Assembly (NCBI GenBank): GCA_965204745.1
Contig: OZ242010.1
Coordinates: 1,216,001-1,280,000, forward strand
Length of the DNA stretch: 64,000 bases
Source of the DNA: Candidatus Latescibacterota bacterium
GTDB lineage: Bacteria > Latescibacterota > UBA2968
Direction of reading: 5' to 3'
Below are positions 3,273 through 54,299 of this stretch, piece after piece. The notes below the pieces were generated by a model, which saw nothing but the letters and a program-made list of their open reading frames with translations, was not told the origin of the DNA and ran no database searches. How positions within the stretch are numbered: position 1 is the stretch's first letter; each line of letters starts with the position of its first letter. The position numbers and the translations under genes were made by a program.

Positions 3273-4256
3273 ATGCGAATTAAGAGTAGAAAGCGAGTAA
3301 GAAGCAAGCCGCGGTCAATCGCCCAAAGACATGAACGAGTAAGCCCTCATAGGATCGTACCCGAGACGCCATCGAGATGTTCGTCTTTCGTTCAATCCAA
3401 CTGAACAAGGCCTCAATCGGCTGTCGTATGCTCGAAACCGCCCGAGAATAGTCTTTTTCGGCTTCGGTCAGGCTTTCTTGTCCCTTCTTGCGCTTCACCG
3501 GCGTCTCGAAGATCAGGTTCTGCTGTTTGCTAAGCGTGTCTTTTAAGGGCTGATCGGCGTAGATTTTATCGCCGTAGAGGTGTCCATCACGCAAAACGGG
3601 TAAGACTTGTCGCAAAGCGGTCAGGTCATGCTCTGCTGCACCTGTCAAGCCGATGTACTCTGCTTTCGGGAGGCCGTTCTCACGGTCTTGTGCGACAATG
3701 TGCAGTTTGGTGCCGTAATACCACATCTTTTTGGAAGCGCAGCGGCCTTTGTTGGCCAGTTGTTCTTCGGCCACACACGCCTGACCGCTGCGTGCCGATT
3801 GTGCCATGACAATCGGCATGGAATCCACCAAGTAGGTGTGTTCAGAGAGATCGGTTGCGGGACTGTCCTTTTGGATTTGTTCAATCAATGGCGCGAAGAC
3901 CACACACAAGCGGTTCAACCGCTGGATATAGCCTGCATAAGTGGGCAGATGGGGAAACCAGTCGGAAAGATGATCCTTGGTATAGGTATAAATCGCCTTG
4001 ATCTGCGTGTGCTGTTGCATGATCCCAAACAAATAGATCGTCAGCACTTCTTCATCTGTGAAGGTCGGCGTATCGTTATTGCTCATGCGTTCCGTATAAA
4101 ACCACAGATGCTTTTGGTCATACTGCTGACAAATATAGACATACAAGTGAATGAGTTTATCTTGCCAATCCATCGCGTGCTCCTTCCTTTAAGGGTGAAA
4201 TGACTGAGCCCTCAAGAAAAGACAAGTACGCGATGGATTCAACTCTTAATTCGCAT
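3273..4256 (-). mobile_element. IS982-family insertion sequence, apparently intact
   Basis: Perfect 15-bp terminal IR ATGCGAATTAAGAGT (3273) / ACTCTTAATTCGCAT (4242-4256), flanking direct repeat CACCA, one transposase ORF. Confidence 0.9.
3280..4173 (-). CDS. IS982-family DDE transposase
   Basis: FTDEEVLTIYLFG, LVDSMPI, YYGTKLH, LYGDKIY and RQPIEALF motifs; 297 aa. Confidence 0.9.
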   Translation of the reverse strand: MDWQDKLIHLYVYICQQYDQKHLWFYTERMSNNDTPTFTDEEVLTIYLFGIMQQHTQIKAIYTYTKDHLSDWFPHLPTYAGYIQRLNRLCVVFAPLIEQIQKDSPATDLSEHTYLVDSMPIVMAQSARSGQACVAEEQLANKGRCASKKMWYYGTKLHIVAQDRENGLPKAEYIGLTGAAEHDLTALRQVLPVLRDGHLYGDKIYADQPLKDTLSKQQNLIFETPVKRKKGQESLTEAEKDYSRAVSSIRQPIEALFSWIERKTNISMASRVRSYEGLLVHVFGRLTAACFLLAFYS

Positions 4257-24342: not shown

Positions 24343-24696
24343 TAGGTTCTGTTGACATTTACGAGCAAAGCAACAGGCTTGAGCGGTTTATCGAGAAAAT
24401 CAAGCCCTATCGCAGAATATGCTCTCGGTTTGAGAAACTGAAACAGTCGCTCCTTATCGGGACCTACCCCCCTAACCCCCGTTACTCGCTTCGCTTCGTT
24501 GTAGGCTACGCCTGTGCCTGCGAGGAAGGGGGAACGGTGAGCGGTTTTGCGAGGGGATTGATGAGGGATATTTAATCGCTTTATGCCCTCGCAAAACGCC
24601 ATCAGAGCAACCAGAGCGAGAAGCCATCAAAGGAACTTTACTCCCCTTTCCTCGTAGGAAAGGGGCCGGGGGATAGGTCCCCTCGCGCAACGCCAT
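24343..24696. mobile_element. Modular IS5-derived MITE, one-ended copy D
   Basis: TA+GGTTCTGTTGACATTT end, transposase relic and hairpin modules as in copies A and B; second TIR absent. Confidence 0.8.
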
Positions 24697-46531: not shown

Positions 46532-47110
46532 TCATTCCCTCCATTCGCGGTACAGGGGCATCAACAAGTCGCGCAACCGCGCCCGCGCCCGCGAGAGCCT
46601 CGATTTCACCGTGCCGATAGATAGCCCTAAAACGCCGGCGATTTCCTCTTGTGACAGGTCTTCGATATCCTTGAGCACCACCACTGCGCGATGTTCGGGC
46701 GACAACAGGTCGAGCACGGTTTGAATTTGGTCGCGCAGGCCAATGTGGTCGATGTCATTTTGCGGTTCGTCCGTGCCCCAAAACCGGTCGAGGAACATCG
46801 CGTTGGCCTCTTGCATGCCGTCGAGGGAGATGCTGTCTGGCCGCCTGTGTTCGCGCTTGGCAACCGTGAGGCAAACATTGGTGGCGATGCGATAGAGATA
46901 GGTGTAAAAACTCGACTTGCCCTCAAACTTTCCCAGTGCGCGATACGCCCTGATAAACGCTTCTTGCGCCGCGTCCTTTGCGGCTTCGCGGTCGCCGATG
47001 ATCGAACAGGCCAAGCCGTAGATGCGGTCTTCATAGCGTTCGACGAGATGGCGGAATGCCTGCACATCGCCCTGTTGGCATTGGCGGATCAGATCGTGTT
47101 CATCGCGCAT
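46532..47110 (-). CDS. ECF RNA polymerase sigma factor (RpoE-like)
   Basis: DAAQEAFIRAY, SFYTYLYRIATN and GTVKSRLSRAR. Confidence 0.93.
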   Translation of the reverse strand: MRDEHDLIRQCQQGDVQAFRHLVERYEDRIYGLACSIIGDREAAKDAAQEAFIRAYRALGKFEGKSSFYTYLYRIATNVCLTVAKREHRRPDSISLDGMQEANAMFLDRFWGTDEPQNDIDHIGLRDQIQTVLDLLSPEHRAVVVLKDIEDLSQEEIAGVLGLSIGTVKSRLSRARARLRDLLMPLYREWRE

Positions 47111-47153
47111 TCGGAATCGGGTTTGGGGTTGCGATCAGTGGTGCTTCACGGGA

Positions 47154-47182
47154 TTAGACCACAAAATCAACATGGGCGTTCC
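47154..47182 (-). promoter_or_regulatory. Putative autoregulatory ECF promoter
   Basis: GGAAC-N18-GTCTAA about 45 nt upstream of the sigma ATG, matching the RpoE-type consensus. Confidence 0.55.
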
Positions 47183-47281
47183 GAAAAAAACCACCCGTGC
47201 GTGCCCCGCTCATCCACCCAACCGCCCGTGCGTGCCCATCCCGCCCTCACCCCGCCGTGTGCGATCCCACACCACCGCCCC

Positions 47282-47486
47282 TTGATGGCGTTGCGCGAGG
47301 GGACCTATCCCCCGGCCCCGTTATTCGCTTCGCTCATTGTAGGCTACGCCTGTGCCTACAAGGAAAGGGGAGTAAAGTTCCTTTGATGGCTTATATCAAT
47401 GGCTACTCTGATGGCGTTGTGCGAGGGCATCAAGCGATTAAAAATCCCTCATCATTCCCCTCGCAAAACCACTCACAGTTCCCCCT
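47282..47486. repeat. Internal modules of the MITE family, interrupted by IS110
   Basis: Matches the interior of copy A; the remainder (GGGTAGGTCCCAA) resumes at about 48400. Confidence 0.8.
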
Positions 47487-47550
47487 TGTATCTTGGGATC
47501 AAGGGTTAATTAGGTGTTGCGCCCTCGTATCGAGATAAGCCATCTTGATG

Positions 47551-47676
47551 CTCGGCTCGGGGAAGGCCGGTTCCCCCTTGCAGGCAATGACCTTGTCAGG
47601 AAGAGAGGCCCCCCGACCGCCGAGTCTATGCCGAAGAGTATCTAAATCCATCGAGGCTGCATATACAAGGTCGGTA
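47551..47676 (+). ncRNA. IS110 bridge RNA (target- and donor-binding loops)
   Basis: Two stem/internal-loop/hairpin units. Guides GTTCCCCCT (47570-78), CAGGAAG (47597-603), AGAGTATCT (47635-43) and ATACAAG (47663-69); first and last match the element's own junction. Confidence 0.8.
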
Positions 47677-47754
47677 GGCTTGGCGCGAATGGTCGGGACG
47701 CGACCCCGAGCGCACCTCAGATCCCTTACAGACCCCTCATCACAGGAGGCCCCC

Positions 47755-48364
47755 ATGTCGAACTCTCAACCCGCTTTTGCCGGCATTGATGTCAGTGCCC
47801 GCACGTTGTCCGTTGCCCTGTCCAGACCTGGACAAGATGTCCTGCAAGCGACCTTTGACAATGATCCCCGGGCGCATAAGCGGTTGCTGAAGTAGGGGCG
47901 AATAATTATTCTCCCCTACTCACCAAGGGCGGACACATGGTCATGGTCTCTGTCTGCCTCGAAGCGACCGGGCTTTACAGCTTGGGGGTGGCCTTGGCCT
48001 TGCATCGGCATCGCCACACGCAGGTCATGGTCGTCAATCCCAAGGCGATGAGCAAGTACGCCCAAGCCTGCATGCAACGGGCGAAGACGGATGCGAAGGA
48101 TGCGTTGTTGATCCTCGATCCGGGACTGCCAATCCACAAAGACGCATCTCGAAAACCGGGAATAAGTATCTCCGCCATGCCCTCTATATGCCTGCCTGGG
48201 TGGCCAGCAGACACGAAGTCCATGTCAAAGCCTTCTATGACCAACTCATTGCCAGAGGCAAGAAACCTTTGCAGGCTATCGTTGCGGTGATGCGAAAGTT
48301 GCTCCATCCGATCTGGGGCATGTTGCGGCATGACCAAGATTTTGAGGGCGAAACACCTAATTAA
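47755..48364 (+). pseudogene. IS110 DEDD recombinase pseudogene
   Basis: GIDVS, CLEATG and KTDAKDA, then SGT...ISKTGNKYLRHALY...AVMRKLLH in another frame; REP insertion at 47892-47919 and a large central deletion. Confidence 0.88.
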
Positions 48365-48528
48365 CCCTTACTTCCACCAAGATACAAGGGGCTCCAGTAG
48401 GGTAGGTCCCAATTCCCCATAGGGACAGGCCCCTGTGCCTGTCCCAAAAAGTAAAGCCCGAGTTCACTGTGAACCCGGGCTTTACTTTTTTTGCATCGTA
48501 TGCGTGCCCTTTCGCACCCCTTCGTCGT

Positions 48529-48720
48529 TCAGCCTGTCGAGCCAAAGCCGGCGGCGAAGATGAGGAAAAGGGATTCGATCTCTTGCTTTCGCATATAGAC
48601 CTGTGCGGCGACGGTCGTATCGCCGAAGGTCGGTATCGGATTGGTCGTCACCGCAATGGCGAACATCAGGGTGTTCTCATCGCCATCTTCATCTGTGGCG
48701 GTCAGGGAACAGGCTTTCAT
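48529..48720 (-). pseudogene. Fragment of an Ig-like repeat
   Basis: SLTATDEDGDENTLMFAIAV...PTFGDTTVAAQVY directly downstream of the large surface protein. Confidence 0.4.
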
Positions 48721-51700
48721 TGGAAGTGGGAGTCGGGATAGAGGCTTCGGATGTAGGGTTCAATTTCTTGAGCGGTCGTGCGCGTAGCAGTTGGCTCGAT
48801 GACGTTCCCTCTGAGGAGGGCCTCGTTCCGGAAGAAGAGGACGTATCGAATGATCAGGATTATATCCGAGAACAGCCTCACATCGCCATCGCCATCCACA
48901 TCGAGAATGTTCTGATTGACCAACGTGTCGAGGTAGGGTTCAATTTCTTGAGCGGTCGTGCGCGTGGCAGTTGGCTCGATGACGTTCCCTCTGAGGAGGG
49001 CCTCGTTCCGGAAGAAGAGGACATATCGAATGACCAGGATTATATCCGAGAACAATCTCACCCGGCCATCGCCATCCACATCCAAGTTGGCACTCTCGTC
49101 ATCGGTCAGGGTCAGGGTCACGGGCGAGGGTGCGGTGATGCCTTGGGCGTTGTTTGCGGTTGCAGACACTGTGACCGTCTTCTCGTCTGCCTGGTCGTTG
49201 TTGTCCACGGCGGTGATCGTCACGGTGTCCGTGCTCGTTGTGGCCGTCGCCGCGATGATCAGCGTGTCTGCACTCGATAGCGTGAAGTCGCTCGCAGTTG
49301 CAGGGGACACAGGCGTAGCAGAGACCGTGATCGTCGTGATCGCGCTCGATGGATGCGATAGGGTCGCCGTGATCGTAGAAACCTCGCCATTTTCCGAGAT
49401 GGACGAGGGGGTGAGCACCAACGTCACGGTCGGCGCATCTTCATCGTCGGTCGTCGTCACTGGAACATCCTCGTCCGAAAGGGTGTTGTAGCCGGGATCG
49501 CCGCTTGACGAGGCGAGTCGTACCGTCCAGGTGACGTCCCCGTCGTCGATGGTATCGTCCTGCCCGGTCACGGTCACTGTCTGCGCCGTGTTATAGCTCG
49601 TCGGCGTGAAGGTCAGCACCACAGGCTCAACCCGCCCTTCGCTCGGGTCTTGGCTCGTCACCGAAATCGTCACCGCCGCCGTGGGTTGCGTCAGCAGGGC
49701 CACCGTGAAGGTCGCCGAGGCACCGGCCTCTGTGGCCTGCCCGGTCACCGCGCTGATGTCCAAGCCGAAATCGTTATCGCGGTTGACCATGTACACGATG
49801 ATCGCGGAGAGCGCGTCATAGTTGGTGTCCTGCGTATCCGTCTGGTTCACCGAGAGGGTGACCGTATAGTTCTGGTTGCCATCGACGGCGGCGGGAGTAT
49901 CGTCCTGCCCGGTCACGGTCACGGTTTGTGCCGTGTTCCAGTCTGATGGCATGAAGGTCAGCACCGAGGGCGATACAGTGCCTTCCGTCGTGTCTGAACT
50001 GACCACCGAGAGGGCTACGTTCCCCGTCGGCTCGGAGGCGAGCGTGACCGTGAAGGTTTCTGCCCTGCCCGACTCTGTCGTGTGGAGCCTGACCGTCGTC
50101 GTGGTCATCGCCGACACCTCAATCGCCGCCTCGTCGTCATCGGTGATCGTCAGCGTCGCATCAGTGACCGACCCCGCGCCCATGCTGTTGTCCACCGTGC
50201 TCGCCGACACGGTCACCGTCTTGTTCCCCGAAACCAGGTTGTTGCCCACCGTCGTGATCGTCACGATGCCCGTGCTCGTCGTTTGCCCCGCTGCGACGGT
50301 CAGCGTGTCCGACGTGCTCAGCGTGTAATCACCTCCAACCGCAGGGGACACAGGCGTCACGGAAACCACTATCGTCGTCGCCGCGCTTGACGGGTGCGAC
50401 AAGGTCGCTGTCACTGTCGAAACCGCGCCAGTCTCAGAAATCGACGATGGGGACACCACCAGCGTCACGGCCGGTGCAGCGTCGTCGTCCGTCAGCGTCA
50501 CAGTGCCGGTCACACTACCCGCGCCTTGGGCATTGCTCACCGCAACGGACACGGTCACGTTGCGAGCAGGCTCGTCTCGGGTGTTGTCCACCGATGTGAT
50601 GACCACCGTATCCGACGCGTTCGCCGTACTCCCGGCCGCGATGGTGATCGTCGAATCCATCCCCACCGTGTAGGCACCCGCCACCGGACGCACCGTGATC
50701 GTCGTTGCCGCGCTCGACGGACGCGATAGCGACGCCGTGACCGTCGAAACCGCGCCGTTCTCCGAAATCGACGCGGGATTCGGCGTCAGCGTCACCATCG
50801 GCGCAAGGTCGTCGTCTGTGATCGTCAAAGTGCCGGTCACCCTGCCCGAGACTTGGCTGTTGTGCATCACAGCGGACATGGTCACGGTGCGATTAGGCTC
50901 GTCTTGGGTGTTGTTCACCGCTGTGATGACCACCGTGTCCGACGCGTTCGCCGTGCTCCCGGCCGCGATGGTGATCGTCGAATCCGCCGGCACCGTGTAA
51001 GCATCCGCCACTGGGCGCACCGTGATCGTCGTCGCCGCGCTCAACGACCGTGACAGCGTCGCGGTCACGGTACTCATCCCGCCGTTTTCCGAGATCGACG
51101 AGGGCGCCAGTGCCAACGTCACGACCACGGGTTGGAGATTAAATTGCACGGTGGTGTCCATGTCGGCATACTTCAAGGCCGGATACTGATCCATCGCGCC
51201 AAAGGTCCACGGATCGTCGTTGCCGGCTTGTCCGTCTATGTTGGCGTTCCAGTTGTAGTAGGTGTCGTTGCTGGTGGCACCGTAGGTGGTGGGACTCTGG
51301 AGCTCGCTGGTGCTCTTGCCCCCGGCAATGCCGCTCTGGTCGCTGTCCCAGTAGCTATTGGTCACTGTGCCAGCCGTGCTGCCCACCAACCCGCCTTTCG
51401 TGCCGTTACCAGTGACCTGACCCGTCGCATAACTGGCCGTCACTTCACCGCTGCTCTCGAGGCGCCCCACCAACCCGCCTTTCGTGCCGTTCCCAGTAAC
51501 CGTGACCGCGCCCGTCGCATAGGACGCGATAATCGTCCCGCCGTTCTGCCACCCCACCAGACCACCGACCCAGAAATTGCCCCCACTCCCTAAGGCCGTC
51601 ACAGCCGCAGCGGAATAGCTGGCACTGATGCGGCGGTTGGCACCGGTATGAGAATGCCCCACCAGACCGCCCAAGCCGAAACTGCCAGACCCCCGAACGC

Positions 51701-53348
51701 GACCGGTGACATAACAACCCGTGATGGCACCCCCGCGCTGATTGCCGGTGAGTCCTCCCACGGCGAGGTTGCCTCTGACATCCACATTGCGGAGCCCAAG
51801 ACCGGAAACAGTGCCCGTGAGATCCTTAATCAGCCCAACATCATTCTGATTGCCACGGTTGATGTACAGGTTGGAGAGGGTCTTGTTATTGCCCTTGAAC
51901 GTACCGGTGTAAGTCCCCAAAGGGAGGAAACCCGCGCCGCTATTCCAGTAGGTGGCGTCTGCTTGGGTGATCGCGCCGTCGTTGTTCTCGTCAAAGTCCA
52001 GGTTGGCGAGAAGTTCGTAGCCGGTGCAACCGCCGCTGGAAGGACACCCCATCCGGCTGGTGGCAGTGGTCAGGTCGCCGCCGGGAAAGGCGCGGGCATA
52101 GGCGATGGTGTCGGCGTTGGTGCCGATGGGCAGGCCATCGCCGTTCAAGTCGTAGCGGATGGCGTTCAACTGCAACAGGGACTGCACGTCAATCAGACCG
52201 TTGTTGTCGCCGTCGTAGTCAACTACCCGCTGGCTGGGCGTGTTGAGGGTGGGGTACTGGCTGGCAGTGCCAAAGTTCCACGGGTTGTCGGGTAAACGAT
52301 CGCCATCCAGCGATATGTTCCAGTTGGCGTAGATGCCGGTGTAGTCCGTCTTGGCCTTTAGAGTGACGGTCATCTGGCCCGTGCCGCCGCCGCCGCTCGT
52401 CCTGCCGCTTGTTTGCGTGTCCCAGTAAGAGGCGGTAATGGTCACGGAGTTGAATGTAGTGGTCAAGCCGCCGATGTTGTTGCTGACCGTTGACGTGACC
52501 GCTCCCGTGGAGTAGCTGGCGATGATGCGGGCGGTGCGCCCCTGGTCGCCGTTGGACGCCCCGGCCAAGCCACCCACGTAAGCGTTGGCTCCGCTGCTAG
52601 GAGCCGCATGCGCCGCCGCGTGGGAGTAGCTGGCTACTATTTTGCCCTCGTCAGGGGGGACTGTACTGAAGTTGTAGCCAACCAGTCCGCCGACGACGAT
52701 GCCTCCACGAACCTCGCCGCTGGTCCAAGAGGCGGTGACCGTCCCGTAGTTGGTGCCGACGAGGATGCCCACATAGTCTTTCCCGTAAACGTATGCGTCT
52801 TTGACGCCCACGGATTCGATGCGGTCGTCGCCGTAGAGCGCGCCGAACAACCCCACGTCGTTCGTGGTCGTCCGCTTTATGAACAGGTTGGAGATGATGT
52901 AGCCGTTGCCCTTGAACGTGGCGTGGAACCGGGTGATGGTGAGGGCATCGCGCCCAATCGGCTCCCATCCCAATCCGCCGTTGTCGTAGTCGTCGCCGGA
53001 GTCGCCCATCGCGGAGGCACCCGTTCCGGTGTAAGTCGAGCCATTTCCGTTGGTGTCAAAGTCCAAGTTGTTGAGCAACTCGTAGCCGGTGCAGGTGGCC
53101 TGGCAACCCATGCCCGACATGGCGTTGGGAAAGGCGGCGTTGTAGTTCATGGTATCCGTAGTGGCTACGGCACCATCGCCATTGAGATCCCAGCGCATGG
53201 CGTTGAGTTGCGCCAGCGTGGTGATGTCAATCAGGTTGTCGTTGTCCGTATCGTAGTCGGTTTGGGCAAAAGCAGGCCCCGATGCCATCAGCACGACCAG
53301 CACGACCATAGCCAACAAGCGAGCGTAGCGGGAGGTCATTTTGTTCAT
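48717..53348 (-). CDS. Large secreted surface protein with GLUG-motif beta-helices, Ig/Calx-beta-like repeats and a duplicated dockerin-like C-terminus
   Basis: Signal peptide; two DYDxDNxxLID...QLNAxRxDLNGDG domains; VGGLVG repeats; Thr/Val-rich ITDDD repeats. Confidence 0.85.
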   Translation of the reverse strand: MNKMTSRYARLLAMVVLVVLMASGPAFAQTDYDTDNDNLIDITTLAQLNAMRWDLNGDGAVATTDTMNYNAAFPNAMSGMGCQATCTGYELLNNLDFDTNGNGSTYTGTGASAMGDSGDDYDNGGLGWEPIGRDALTITRFHATFKGNGYIISNLFIKRTTTNDVGLFGALYGDDRIESVGVKDAYVYGKDYVGILVGTNYGTVTASWTSGEVRGGIVVGGLVGYNFSTVPPDEGKIVASYSHAAAHAAPSSGANAYVGGLAGASNGDQGRTARIIASYSTGAVTSTVSNNIGGLTTTFNSVTITASYWDTQTSGRTSGGGGTGQMTVTLKAKTDYTGIYANWNISLDGDRLPDNPWNFGTASQYPTLNTPSQRVVDYDGDNNGLIDVQSLLQLNAIRYDLNGDGLPIGTNADTIAYARAFPGGDLTTATSRMGCPSSGGCTGYELLANLDFDENNDGAITQADATYWNSGAGFLPLGTYTGTFKGNNKTLSNLYINRGNQNDVGLIKDLTGTVSGLGLRNVDVRGNLAVGGLTGNQRGGAITGCYVTGRVRGSGSFGLGGLVGHSHTGANRRISASYSAAAVTALGSGGNFWVGGLVGWQNGGTIIASYATGAVTVTGNGTKGGLVGRLESSGEVTASYATGQVTGNGTKGGLVGSTAGTVTNSYWDSDQSGIAGGKSTSELQSPTTYGATSNDTYYNWNANIDGQAGNDDPWTFGAMDQYPALKYADMDTTVQFNLQPVVVTLALAPSSISENGGMSTVTATLSRSLSAATTITVRPVADAYTVPADSTITIAAGSTANASDTVVITAVNNTQDEPNRTVTMSAVMHNSQVSGRVTGTLTITDDDLAPMVTLTPNPASISENGAVSTVTASLSRPSSAATTITVRPVAGAYTVGMDSTITIAAGSTANASDTVVITSVDNTRDEPARNVTVSVAVSNAQGAGSVTGTVTLTDDDAAPAVTLVVSPSSISETGAVSTVTATLSHPSSAATTIVVSVTPVSPAVGGDYTLSTSDTLTVAAGQTTSTGIVTITTVGNNLVSGNKTVTVSASTVDNSMGAGSVTDATLTITDDDEAAIEVSAMTTTTVRLHTTESGRAETFTVTLASEPTGNVALSVVSSDTTEGTVSPSVLTFMPSDWNTAQTVTVTGQDDTPAAVDGNQNYTVTLSVNQTDTQDTNYDALSAIIVYMVNRDNDFGLDISAVTGQATEAGASATFTVALLTQPTAAVTISVTSQDPSEGRVEPVVLTFTPTSYNTAQTVTVTGQDDTIDDGDVTWTVRLASSSGDPGYNTLSDEDVPVTTTDDEDAPTVTLVLTPSSISENGEVSTITATLSHPSSAITTITVSATPVSPATASDFTLSSADTLIIAATATTSTDTVTITAVDNNDQADEKTVTVSATANNAQGITAPSPVTLTLTDDESANLDVDGDGRVRLFSDIILVIRYVLFFRNEALLRGNVIEPTATRTTAQEIEPYLDTLVNQNILDVDGDGDVRLFSDIILIIRYVLFFRNEALLRGNVIEPTATRTTAQEIEPYIRSLYPDSHFQ

Positions 53349-53679: not shown

Positions 53680-54299
53680 ACCTGTCCCTACGACGGATGG
53701 CGAGAGGTTGTGCGATTAGCCACAAAAGGCACAAAAACACAAAAGGGCGATGGGTCTTCCGAGGGATTGTGCGAGGGGGACCTACCCCCTGGCCCCCTTC
53801 CTAAGAGGAAGGGGGAACTGTGAGCGGTTTTGCGAGGGGAATGGCGTAGAGGTTTTTTCGGGTTCATAGCGTGATCTATTCGCGCAAAGCCATCAGAATA
53901 GCCAGGGATACAACCCTTCAAGAAAGCCACGCGCTCCCCCTTTCCTCGTAGGCACAGGCGTAGCCTACAATGAGCGAAGCGAATAACGGGGGCCGGGGGG
54001 ATAGGTCTATGGCGGTAGGGCGGGGGGTGGTAATCCGCGCAATCCCCTAATCCGTTTAATCCGCGATTCAGACACGGGTGGCAGGGCGGCGAGGACGGCC
54101 ACGCTCATCGCTCTAAAACAAAATGTCAACAGAACCTCGTTCATGTCTTTGGGCGATTGACCGCGGCTTGCTTCTTACTCGCTTTCTACTCTTAATTTGA
54201 CAACTGACAACTCGGGCGATGGCGGGGTTGTCTCACCTCTCCCGTCTTACGTCTCACCGAAGGGGGTTGGGCGGTGCGGACTAACAACTGACAACTGAT
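53680..54299. repeat. Mosaic of repeat modules, including a MITE TIR (54121-54137) fused to an IS982 end fragment (54136-54197)
   Basis: Each sub-block matches a separate repeat family elsewhere in the window. Confidence 0.8.

What the first reader, a model, noticed from the sequence alone, without database searches (positions are those of the whole stretch)
47478..47680. Readable IS110 bridge RNA programmed against this genome's own MITE hairpin
Seen: the 5' non-coding end folds into two stem/internal-loop units. Loop 1 carries GTTCCCCCT (47570-78) and CAGGAAG (47597-603), which spell target GTTCCCC-CT-TCCTG. Loop 2 carries AGAGTATCT (47635-43) and ATACAAG (47663-69), which spell donor AGAGTAT-CT-TGTAT. 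The element's left junction is exactly left target + core + right donor: GTTCCCC-CT-TGTAT (47478-47491). Unoccupied sites GTTCCCCCTTCCT lie inside MITE-family copies at 24523-24535 and 53806-53818 (minus strand). Established: IS110 recombinases use such bispecific bridge RNAs with a 2-nt core, and IS621 targets REPs; from memory its donor differs from this one by one base, which should be verified. Inference: an RNA-guided element parasitises an IS5-derived non-autonomous element as a multicopy safe harbour. The bridge RNA looks intact although the recombinase is dead, so it could act in trans.
Basis: partly seen in the sequence, partly recalled or inferred. Interest (0 to 1): 0.88.

Follow-up and report, generated by a model that had tools for sequence, protein, structure and literature searches.

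The report
Decayed IS110 copy with bridge RNA
This is the wreck of an RNA-guided jumping gene (IS110 family) whose guide RNA still spells the repeat hairpin it landed in; it is a clear new example of a mechanism described in 2024, not a new mechanism.

Summary
Window 47487-47754 is the non-coding left end of an IS110-family element. It has two stem/internal-loop units with the four guide segments at the stated coordinates. The left junction is GTTCCCC-CT-TGTAT.

The genome holds 52 full-length sister copies of about 1.29 kb, 51 with an intact 335-aa recombinase. That protein matches the solved ISCro4 and IS621 bridge recombinases. All 52 end in AGAGTAT-CT. Sequence differences between sublineages concentrate in the two target-loop guides and track each sublineage's own flanks. 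The sets cover 8 guide classes across three genomes. Most copies target CCTCTYR heptamer arrays, not the hairpin.

The window copy belongs to a hairpin-targeting sublineage with no intact member found here. Its recombinase has a stop caused by a 25-nt palindromic insert and a 406-bp frameshifting deletion, and its 3' end and right end are lost. An inverted left-end stub follows, apparently from a second insertion in the hairpin's other arm.

Its bridge RNA has two private substitutions, each breaking an inner-stem pair, and no promoter-like site. None of the 52 full-length copies sits in a hairpin site, so action in trans is unsupported.

The "IS5-derived" origin of the about 190-bp MITE-like repeat is not supported. 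New member of a known kind.

The parts
47300..47486 (+). Left part of a ~190-225-bp MITE-like repeat. The terminal repeat GGGACCTA.. starts at 47300; the target hairpin's left arm ends at 47486.
   Evidence: sequence; the 46 nt left of the insertion recur 137 times in the genome; 224 and 220 terminal-repeat motifs; 95 units of 150-260 bp.
47478..47491 (+). Left junction: left target GTTCCCC + core CT + right donor TGTAT.
   Evidence: It matches the left-target guide 9 of 9 and the right-donor guide 7 of 7.
47487..47754 (+). Non-coding left end of the IS110 element, which is the bridge RNA gene.
   Evidence: aligns with the left ends of 52 full-length copies and 25 relatives.
47557..47616 (+). 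Target-binding loop unit. Outer stem 47557-68 with 47607-16. Left-target guide 47570-78. Inner stem-loop 47581-94, with private C47581. Right-target guide 47597-603. Handshake positions 47604-05.
   Evidence: Guide-flank covariation.
47618..47685 (+). Donor-binding loop unit. Outer stem 47618-33 with 47672-85. Left-donor guide 47635-43. Inner stem 47645-58, with private A47646. Right-donor guide 47663-69. Handshake positions 47670-71.
   Evidence: Element ends.
47755..47892 (+). Recombinase fragment 1 (residues 1-46, includes the GIDVS motif), ended by TAG at 47893-95.
47893..47918 (.). Small palindromic insert (about 25 nt, net +23) that creates the stop codon.
   Evidence: alignment with a full-length copy; 8 similar palindromes in the genome, two of them in another decayed copy.
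47919..48117 (+). Recombinase fragment 2 (about residues 47-112, DEDD domain part), with a 6-nt tandem duplication.
   Evidence: PF01548, E 4.6e-10; 58 of 59 identical to the intact protein..
48117..48118 (.). Junction of a 406-bp internal deletion. It shifts the frame and removes about residues 113-247.
   Evidence: columns 718-1123 absent.
48118..48353 (+). Recombinase fragment 3 (C-terminal part, to ..DFEGE).
   Evidence: 95.8% over 236 nt to full-length copies.
48354..48388 (-). Inverted stub of a second element's left end (about 33 nt) plus its CT core. It is joined to fragment 3 at a GAGGGCG microhomology.
   Evidence: query 905-952 hits the left ends of all copies in reverse.. The joining mechanism is inferred.
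48389..48410 (+). Right end of the same MITE-like repeat: the other hairpin arm remnant and the terminal repeat ..GGGTAGGTCCC.
   Evidence: compared by eye with the repeat copies listed.
24523..24535 (-). Unoccupied target site in another copy of the repeat.
53806..53818 (-). Unoccupied target site in another copy of the repeat.

Best explanation
Window 47487-48388 is a dead relic of an IS110-family (IS110 subgroup, IS621-like) insertion sequence. Such elements move as a circle. A DEDD/Ser recombinase is guided by a bridge RNA encoded in the left end. One internal loop pairs with both strands of the target, and the other pairs with the joined element ends. Exchange takes place at a CT core.

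Here the target loop (GTTCCCCCT / CAGGAAG) is written for GTTCCCC-CT-TCCT(G/C), the hairpin at one end of a ~190-bp MITE-like repeat. The donor loop (AGAGTATCT / ATACAAG) is written for AGAGTAT-CT-TGTAT. The element inserted into that hairpin. A second copy apparently inserted into the mirror site on the other arm, and a deletion between the two removed both right ends. Further decay followed: a palindromic insert giving a stop codon, and a 406-bp deletion.

The hairpin-targeting sublineage has no intact member in this genome. A sister sublineage with re-written target guides has recently burst to 52 copies in CCTCTYR heptamer arrays.

Shown: anatomy, homology, junctions, guide-flank covariation and stem conservation. 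Inferred: RNA expression, recombination activity, the two-insertion history, and the view that this copy is now inert.
For: Copies and ends. The genome holds 52 full-length copies. They are 1286-1305 bp long; 51 of 52 have an intact 335-aa reading frame and 26 are identical. All 52 end in AGAGTAT-CT and 51 start with TGTAT; one has a 1-nt insertion.

Protein. The intact protein has PF01548 (E 1.2e-24) and PF02371 (E 4.8e-20). It matches the ISCro4 (E 7.6e-40) and IS621 (E 5.8e-36) transposases of solved structures.

Guide-flank covariation. Among 13 distinct left ends, the differences cluster in the two target guides. I found 8 guide classes in three genomes. Contiguous guide-flank matches for cognate pairs average 6.43 on the left (n=76) and 5.23 on the right (n=75). 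Non-cognate pairs average 3.79 (n=532) and 2.79 (n=514).

Hairpin sublineage. Besides the window copy, four more left junctions lie in the hairpin repeat, at genome 921724, 1433010, 2089514 and 4373144. One right junction reads AGAGTAT-CT-TCCTC at genome 5088585.

Structure. The consensus fold places the guides in internal loops. Pairs 110:176, 115:172, 116:171, 75:82, 139:148 and 52:102 change on both sides.

Handshake position. The first base after the right-donor guide tracks target position 7. It is A with T in the heptamer classes of this genome, and G with C in the window copy and in the copy at 921724. This fits the handshake guides described in PMC11208158 (passages read).

Donor. It is 13 of 14 identical to the IS621 donor oligo printed in PMC13396178.

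Relatives. Copies in a related Latescibacterota assembly with the reading frame matched over its whole length sit at a similar site..TTCTKCCCC-CT-TTTCT...
Against: There is no RNA evidence of any kind: no RNA run was listed. Rfam 15 gave no match in the left end, so no curated bridge RNA model was applied.

Stem covariation rests on close relatives from three genomes plus one partial distant sequence. Most stem pairs never vary.

The 5' hairpin at 47527-47551 is not conserved: 72% of cells paired and none with changes on both sides.

Some copies do not match their own guides, namely the copies at 845540 and 602774, and 1433010 at the handshake position.

The outermost right-target guide base (C47597) mismatches the common top-strand site.

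The two-insertion history of the right side is read by eye.
Confidence: 0.9

Rival explanations
1. The window's orphan bridge RNA, with those of the decayed copies at genome 921724 and 1433010, is still made. It acts in trans with the 51 intact recombinases and steers sister elements, or rearrangements, to the MITE hairpins.
For: In the IS621 system, a bridge RNA supplied in trans supports recombination (PMC11208160, passages read). Low-level read-through transcription is enough for excision of integrated IS621 (PMC13626964, section 5 read).

The donor guides AGAGTATCT and ATACAAG are the same in the window copy and in the major sublineage, so the donors are compatible.

Orphan guide-RNA genes of an IS110-family element (ssr9 / MITEPpu9) are described in PMC12288879 (passages read).

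Candidate sites are plentiful: GTTCCCCCTTC occurs 64 times and TTCCCCCTTCCT 131 times.
Against: 0 of 52 full-length copies sits in a hairpin site; all sit at sites matching their own guides.

No sigma-70-like promoter was found in 47250-47800. The copy has lost the right end, which carries TTGACC 17-18 nt from the left end's TATCTT once the ends are joined (spacing counted by eye).

Two private substitutions break inner-stem pairs.
Confidence: 0.08
2. The guide-flank matches are not RNA guidance. They are leftovers of homologous recombination or gene conversion that copied target sequence into the left end.
For: The targets are abundant repeats, so short identities with flanks are easier to obtain by chance or conversion. 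The heptamer classes differ from each other at only a few positions.
Against: The right-target and right-donor guides match as reverse complements while the left guides match in the same sense. This is exactly the two-strand pattern of the IS621 model. The guides sit at fixed positions within conserved stems. Both guides change together with both flanks in 8 classes. The protein is homologous to recombinases solved with their bridge RNAs.
Confidence: 0.02

Closest known systems
IS621 of Escherichia coli (IS110 subgroup; bridge RNA; structure 8WT6)
   Same: Recombinase homology (E 5.8e-36). Bridge RNA in the 5' left end with a target loop and a donor loop. CT core. Donor 13 of 14 identical. A 9-nt left-target guide and a right-target guide that can extend to 7 nt. 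Targets a palindromic genomic repeat (REP). The RE-LE junction appears to form a promoter (for IS621; inferred here).
   Different: The host is probably a Latescibacterota (inferred). The targets are a MITE-like terminal hairpin and CCTCTYR heptamer arrays rather than REPs. At least five differently programmed sublineages share one genome. The window copy itself is dead.
ISCro4 bridge recombinase (structure 9T56)
   Same: Best solved-structure match to the intact sister protein (E 7.6e-40, residues 7-326).
   Different: I saw only the protein chain. I did not compare its RNA or its target.
ISPpu9 / MITEPpu9 (orphan ssr9 genes) of Pseudomonas putida
   Same: An IS110-family element inserted in palindromic repeats, with guide-RNA genes that also occur without a transposase (PMC12288879, abstract and passages).
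   Different: There the RNA gene lies downstream of the transposase and forms its own mobile mini-element. Here the orphan RNA genes are simply the left ends of truncated copies.
[quoted passage not shown]
   Same: An IS110-family element that uses the terminal repeat of another mobile element as its landing site. I saw only the title, in the reference list of PMC11208160.
   Different: A different subgroup. The target is an autonomous transposon rather than a miniature repeat. I did not read the paper.

Membership tests
IS110 family, IS110 subgroup (bridge recombinase plus bridge RNA) | N-terminal DEDD RuvC-like domain (PF01548) | tested here: met
   Intact sister protein E 1.2e-24; window fragment 47937-48137 E 4.6e-10.
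IS110 family, IS110 subgroup (bridge recombinase plus bridge RNA) | C-terminal Tnp domain with the catalytic serine (PF02371) | tested here: met
   Met in the sister protein (E 4.8e-20). In the window copy most of this domain falls within the 406-bp deletion and the frame is shifted.
IS110 family, IS110 subgroup (bridge recombinase plus bridge RNA) | Non-coding RNA upstream of the recombinase with two stem/internal-loop units | tested here: met
   Consensus fold. Pair counts 91.7% against 34-45% when slid; 6 pairs changed on both sides.
IS110 family, IS110 subgroup (bridge recombinase plus bridge RNA) | Target-loop guides match the left flank (same sense) and the right flank (reverse complement) | tested here: met
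   Window left flank 9 of 9. 8 classes covary with their flanks. The window's own right flank is lost.
IS110 family, IS110 subgroup (bridge recombinase plus bridge RNA) | Donor-loop guides match the right end (same sense) and the left end (reverse complement) | tested here: met
   AGAGTATCT equals the right end plus core in 52 of 52 full-length copies. ATACAAG is the reverse complement of CT+TGTAT.
IS110 family, IS110 subgroup (bridge recombinase plus bridge RNA) | The same dinucleotide core (CT) at both junctions, with no long terminal inverted repeats of the element's own | tested here: met
   CT at both junctions in 52 of 52 copies. The apparent inverted repeat of the window copy is a second element's left-end stub.
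IS110 family, IS110 subgroup (bridge recombinase plus bridge RNA) | A promoter reconstituted at the RE-LE circle junction | tested here: inconclusive
   The right end carries TTGACC 13-14 nt before the core, and the left end has TATCTT 2 nt after it. That gives a spacer of 17-18 nt, counted by eye. I scanned no joined sequence and have no RNA data.
IS110 family, IS110 subgroup (bridge recombinase plus bridge RNA) | Handshake guide bases after the right-target and right-donor guides | tested here: inconclusive
   The base after the right-donor guide tracks target position 7 (A/T or G/C) in most classes of this genome; the copy at 1433010 is an exception. The two bases after the right-target guide are AT, complementary to donor positions 7 and 6, in all but the hairpin sublineage, which has AG.
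IS110 family, IS110 subgroup (bridge recombinase plus bridge RNA) | RNA-dependent recombination activity | not testable with these tools
   Needs an assay.
   224 and 220 terminal motifs; 95 units of 150-260 bp.
   2-bp flank identity in 29 of 95 units and 3-bp in 1 of 95. The flanks are themselves other repeat modules.
   The nine terminal-repeat pairs spaced 560-2500 bp apart showed no recognisable transposase (judged by eye from ORF translations, no family search). None of the 22 DDE_Tnp_1 loci checked, of 55 matches, has both motifs within 1.6 kb. The test was quick and used only an 8-nt motif.

The most novel reading that the evidence does not exclude
The hairpin-programmed bridge RNAs that survive in three decayed copies (the window copy and those at genome 921724 and 1433010) still serve the 51 intact sister recombinases as orphan guides. 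That would make the more than 100 MITE-like hairpins latent landing and rearrangement sites. The 7-bp TGTATCT insertions found exactly at the core of such hairpins would then be scars of a second excision register that uses the CT seven bases inside the left end. These insertions occur in at least 4 distinct flank contexts plus one propagated repeat variant, and some also sit next to heptamer arrays.
Probability: 0.1. Interest if true: 0.55.

Novelty: new member of a known kind. Interest (0 to 1): 0.35.

Why it matters
It is a clean natural illustration of bridge-RNA programmability. Within one 5.48-Mb genome, near-identical elements differ almost only in their target guides and sit at correspondingly different repeats. 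One sublineage is booming in heptamer arrays. Another, the hairpin-targeting one to which the window copy belongs, has no intact member.

It extends the IS621-type system, with a nearly identical donor, to what is probably an uncultured Latescibacterota. It also offers a set of natural guide/target pairs for testing specificity rules such as G-U tolerance at right-target position 2, extension of the right-target guide, and the handshake bases.

It does not reveal a new mechanism.

Tried and rejected
Rfam 15 at permissive thresholds over 47300-48500 gave no bridge-RNA family. The only hits were weak chance matches and a terminator-like hairpin near 48447-48500.

For RNA evidence, the look-up of sequencing runs listed no RNA holder.

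The text of the two 2024 Nature papers does not print the IS621 donor. I found it in a methods oligo of PMC13396178. I assume, but did not verify, that this oligo carries the wild-type donor.

The IS110 orthologue and bridge-RNA tables of PMC11208160 may already list this family.

A search for 'IS110' together with 'Latescibacter' found 0 papers. A search for bridge RNA / IS110 / MITE / orphan found the ISPpu9 paper as the only close precedent.

I considered that the inverted repeats bounding 47484-48392 marked a TIR-type element. I rejected this because the right one is a 33-nt stub of another copy's left end, and full-length copies lack it.

I looked for an autonomous partner of the MITE-like repeat and found none. 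Its common right flank is a further ~118-bp repeat module, not an IS.

In some searches I gave fragment 1 one base out of frame (47756 instead of 47755). The Pfam blank for that fragment is therefore void.

I did not build a covariance model, fold the protein or predict a complex. None of these would have changed the verdict.

Full report
OBSERVATION. GTTCCCCCT lies at 47570-78, CAGGAAG at 47597-603, AGAGTATCT at 47635-43, ATACAAG at 47663-69, and GTTCCCC-CT-TGTAT at 47478-91. The two unoccupied sites at 24523-35 and 53806-18 (minus strand) are exact. Allowing one mismatch gives six matches in the window against 0.07 expected. The recombinase start codon is at 47755, so the non-coding left end is 47487-47754.

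WHAT THE ELEMENT IS. The window lies in a single-contig genome of 5.48 Mb with 56.5% G+C. BLAST of 47440-48440 against the genome gave 323 hits. These resolve into 52 full-length copies, several truncated copies, and 137 copies of the 46 nt that flank the insertion on the left.

The full-length copies are 1286-1305 bp long. 51 of 52 have an intact 335-aa reading frame and 26 are identical, which points to a very recent burst. The protein carries PF01548 and PF02371. It matches the ISCro4 (E 7.6e-40) and IS621 (E 5.8e-36) transposases of solved structures.

All 52 copies end in ..AAGAGAGTAT followed by CT. 51 begin with TGTAT after CT; one has a 1-nt insertion. The donor decoded from loop 2, AGAGTAT-CT-TGTAT, therefore equals the joined ends of the family.

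GUIDES TRACK TARGETS. The 53 left ends (52 plus the window) collapse to 13 distinct sequences, and their differences cluster at the two target guides. The classes are:
- Major class (45 copies): CCCCTCT and AGGTAAG. The left flank is CTCCCCTCT in 33 of 45. The right flank is CTTACCT in 24 of 45 and CTTGCCT in 17 of 45; the latter fits a G-U pair.
- A class with CGCCTCT / AAGTAAG sits at CTCGCCTCT | CTTACTT.
- A single copy with TCCCTCT / AGGTGAG sits at CTTCCCTCT | CTCACCT.
- Two related Latescibacterota assemblies add three more classes with matching flanks.

Over all elements, cognate guide-flank contiguous matches average 6.43 on the left (n=76) and 5.23 on the right (n=75). Non-cognate pairings average 3.79 (n=532) and 2.79 (n=514). 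In the class matrix each class's own guides give the highest or a tied-highest score, apart from three left-side cells. Most of these targets are CCTCTYR heptamer arrays.

THE HAIRPIN SUBLINEAGE. The window's guides (9 of 9 to its left flank) belong to a small group. The copies at genome 1433010 and 921724 carry CAGGAAG and TAGGAAG, with left-target guides ending CCCCCCT. Both sit at ..ATTCCCC-CT. Stubs at 2089514 and 4373144 share that junction. A 5'-truncated copy at 5088585 shows the predicted right junction AGAGTAT-CT-TCCTCGCAGG. None of these copies is intact.

The target is the hairpin CCCCCC-TTCCT-CGC-AGGAA-GGGGGG, next to one terminal repeat of a ~190-bp MITE-like unit. That unit is bounded by GGGACCTA..TAGGTCCC, and I found 95 units of 150-260 bp.

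On the top strand the site usually reads CT-TCCTC: 56 sites against 1 with G after GTTCCCCCTTCCT. On the other arm, read on the opposite strand, it reads ..CCCC-CT-TCCTG. In IS621 only 4 right-target guide bases are required and extension to 7 is optional (PMC11208160, passages). The outer mismatch is therefore probably tolerable.

Relatives in one Latescibacterota assembly, whose reading frame matched over its whole length, sit at a similar site, TTCTKCCCC-CT-TTTCT.

STRUCTURE. An RNAalifold consensus of 21 left ends gives two units. Each has an outer stem, an internal loop holding the two guides, and a 4-bp inner stem-loop.

On the structure I named, 91.7% of cells pair, against 34-45% when partners are slid. 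Six pairs change on both sides, for example 110:176 GC to AU in 8 sequences, and 75:82 and 139:148 in the Gemmatimonadota relative. Most pairs never vary, so this support is moderate.

A 5' hairpin (47527-51) is not conserved. The guides are not fully free. The core positions of the two target guides, and GU/AC of the two donor guides, are complementary by design. In the window copy the target guides can zip further because the target contains TTCC twice.

The first base after the right-donor guide tracks target position 7: A/T in the heptamer classes of this genome, and G/C in the window copy and the copy at 921724. This matches the handshake guides of PMC11208158.

STATE OF THE WINDOW COPY. 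Against a full-length copy, the window copy shows these changes:
- A ~25-nt palindromic insert at 47893-918 creates a TAG stop after residue 46.
- There is a 6-nt duplication.
- A 406-bp deletion at 48117/48118 shifts the frame and removes most of the Tnp domain.
- Homology ends at 48353.

After that point come 33 nt of an inverted left end plus its core (48354-88), and then the other arm and terminal repeat of the same MITE-like unit (48389-410).

My reading, inferred by eye, is that two copies inserted tail to tail into the two arms of one hairpin. A deletion between GAGGGCG microhomologies then removed both right ends.

The bridge RNA region carries two substitutions found in none of the 20 other aligned left ends, C47581 and A47646. 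Each breaks an inner-stem pair.

No sigma-70-like site was found in 47250-47800. In IS621 the main bridge-RNA promoter is rebuilt at the RE-LE junction, and integrated copies rely on weak read-through (PMC13626964, section 5). Here the right end carries TTGACC at the right distance from the left end's TATCTT (counted by eye), but this copy has no right end.

None of the 52 full-length copies sits in a hairpin site. I therefore rate trans action as possible but unsupported, at about 0.08.

THE 'IS5-DERIVED MITE'. The repeat does look like a MITE in its terminal repeats, size and copy number. I found no autonomous partner and no clear target-site duplication. Its flanks are further repeat modules. 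The IS5 label is unsupported.

COMPARISON AND NOVELTY. The element works like IS621 and meets the family features I could test. It is a new member of a known kind.

Three precedents exist in print. REP targeting by IS621 is stated in PMC11208160. IS110-family elements that use another transposon's terminal repeats are named in a title in that paper's reference list. Orphan guide-RNA genes are described in PMC12288879.

I found no paper that mentions both IS110 and Latescibacteria. Supplementary tables that might list this clade were closed.

VERDICT. Interest is 0.35.

Noticed in passing
genome (G000:C1) 1079901, 3668568, 2981528, 4573319, and about 12 copies sharing one flank, e.g. 2613382 and 3194432: A 7-bp insertion, TGTATCT, lies exactly at the CT core of the MITE-like hairpin target: ..TTCCCCC-CT-TGTAT-CT-TCCTCG.. 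. The pattern CCCCTTGTATCTTCC occurs 16 times. This is what would remain if the element were deleted between the GTATCT inside its left end and the GTATCT at its right end. It could be a recombinase 'half-match' scar or a microhomology deletion. One such scar seems to have spread along with a repeat variant.
   Followed up: partly
genome-wide, e.g. G000:C1:805071, 1244135, 3689959; about 75-110 copies: A ~38-nt palindromic unit, TGTATCTT(T/C)GGGCGAGCACGGGGGCATCGCCCCTACA, begins with the same 8-12 nt as the IS left end. It is usually preceded by ..CCT-CT from heptamer arrays, so it mimics a left junction. CTTGTATCT occurs 230 times against about 27 expected from base composition. Degenerate versions of the prefix also occur, so the prefix seems to be part of the unit. 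Its relation to the IS is unresolved.
   Followed up: partly
window 47893-47918; also G000:C1:5088679 and six other places: A tiny palindromic insert of about 25-28 nt (TAGGGG..AATAATTATT..CCCCTA). It interrupts the recombinase gene here and, in two copies, the decayed element at 5088585-5089029. Eight similar palindromes are in the genome.
   Followed up: partly
genome-wide; window 47110-47486 and 48389-48500: Intergenic DNA is a mosaic of repeat modules: CCTCTYR and CTGACHA heptamer arrays, the ~190-bp MITE-like unit, a ~118-bp module (about 100-119 copies) that often follows it, and GCCTTTTGT-type units. A terminator-like hairpin (AAAAAGTAAAGCCCGAGTTCACTGTGAACCCGGGCTTTACTTTTT) lies at about 48447-48500 and recurs next to these repeats.
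   Followed up: no
G000:C1:1122938-1124186: Two full-length copies stand in tandem, separated only by CT-TACCT-CT. This looks like consecutive insertions into neighbouring heptamers.
   Followed up: no
genome-wide, including window 3304-3831 (minus strand): 55 matches to the DDE_Tnp_1 (IS4/IS5-type) transposase family, in several length classes. The genome is rich in insertion sequences besides the 52 IS110 copies.
   Followed up: partly
window 48717-53348 (minus strand): A 1543-aa reading frame directly downstream, with internal near-identical repeats at its C-terminal end (two ~180-nt DNA repeats at about 48740-48920 and 48920-49100).
   Followed up: no
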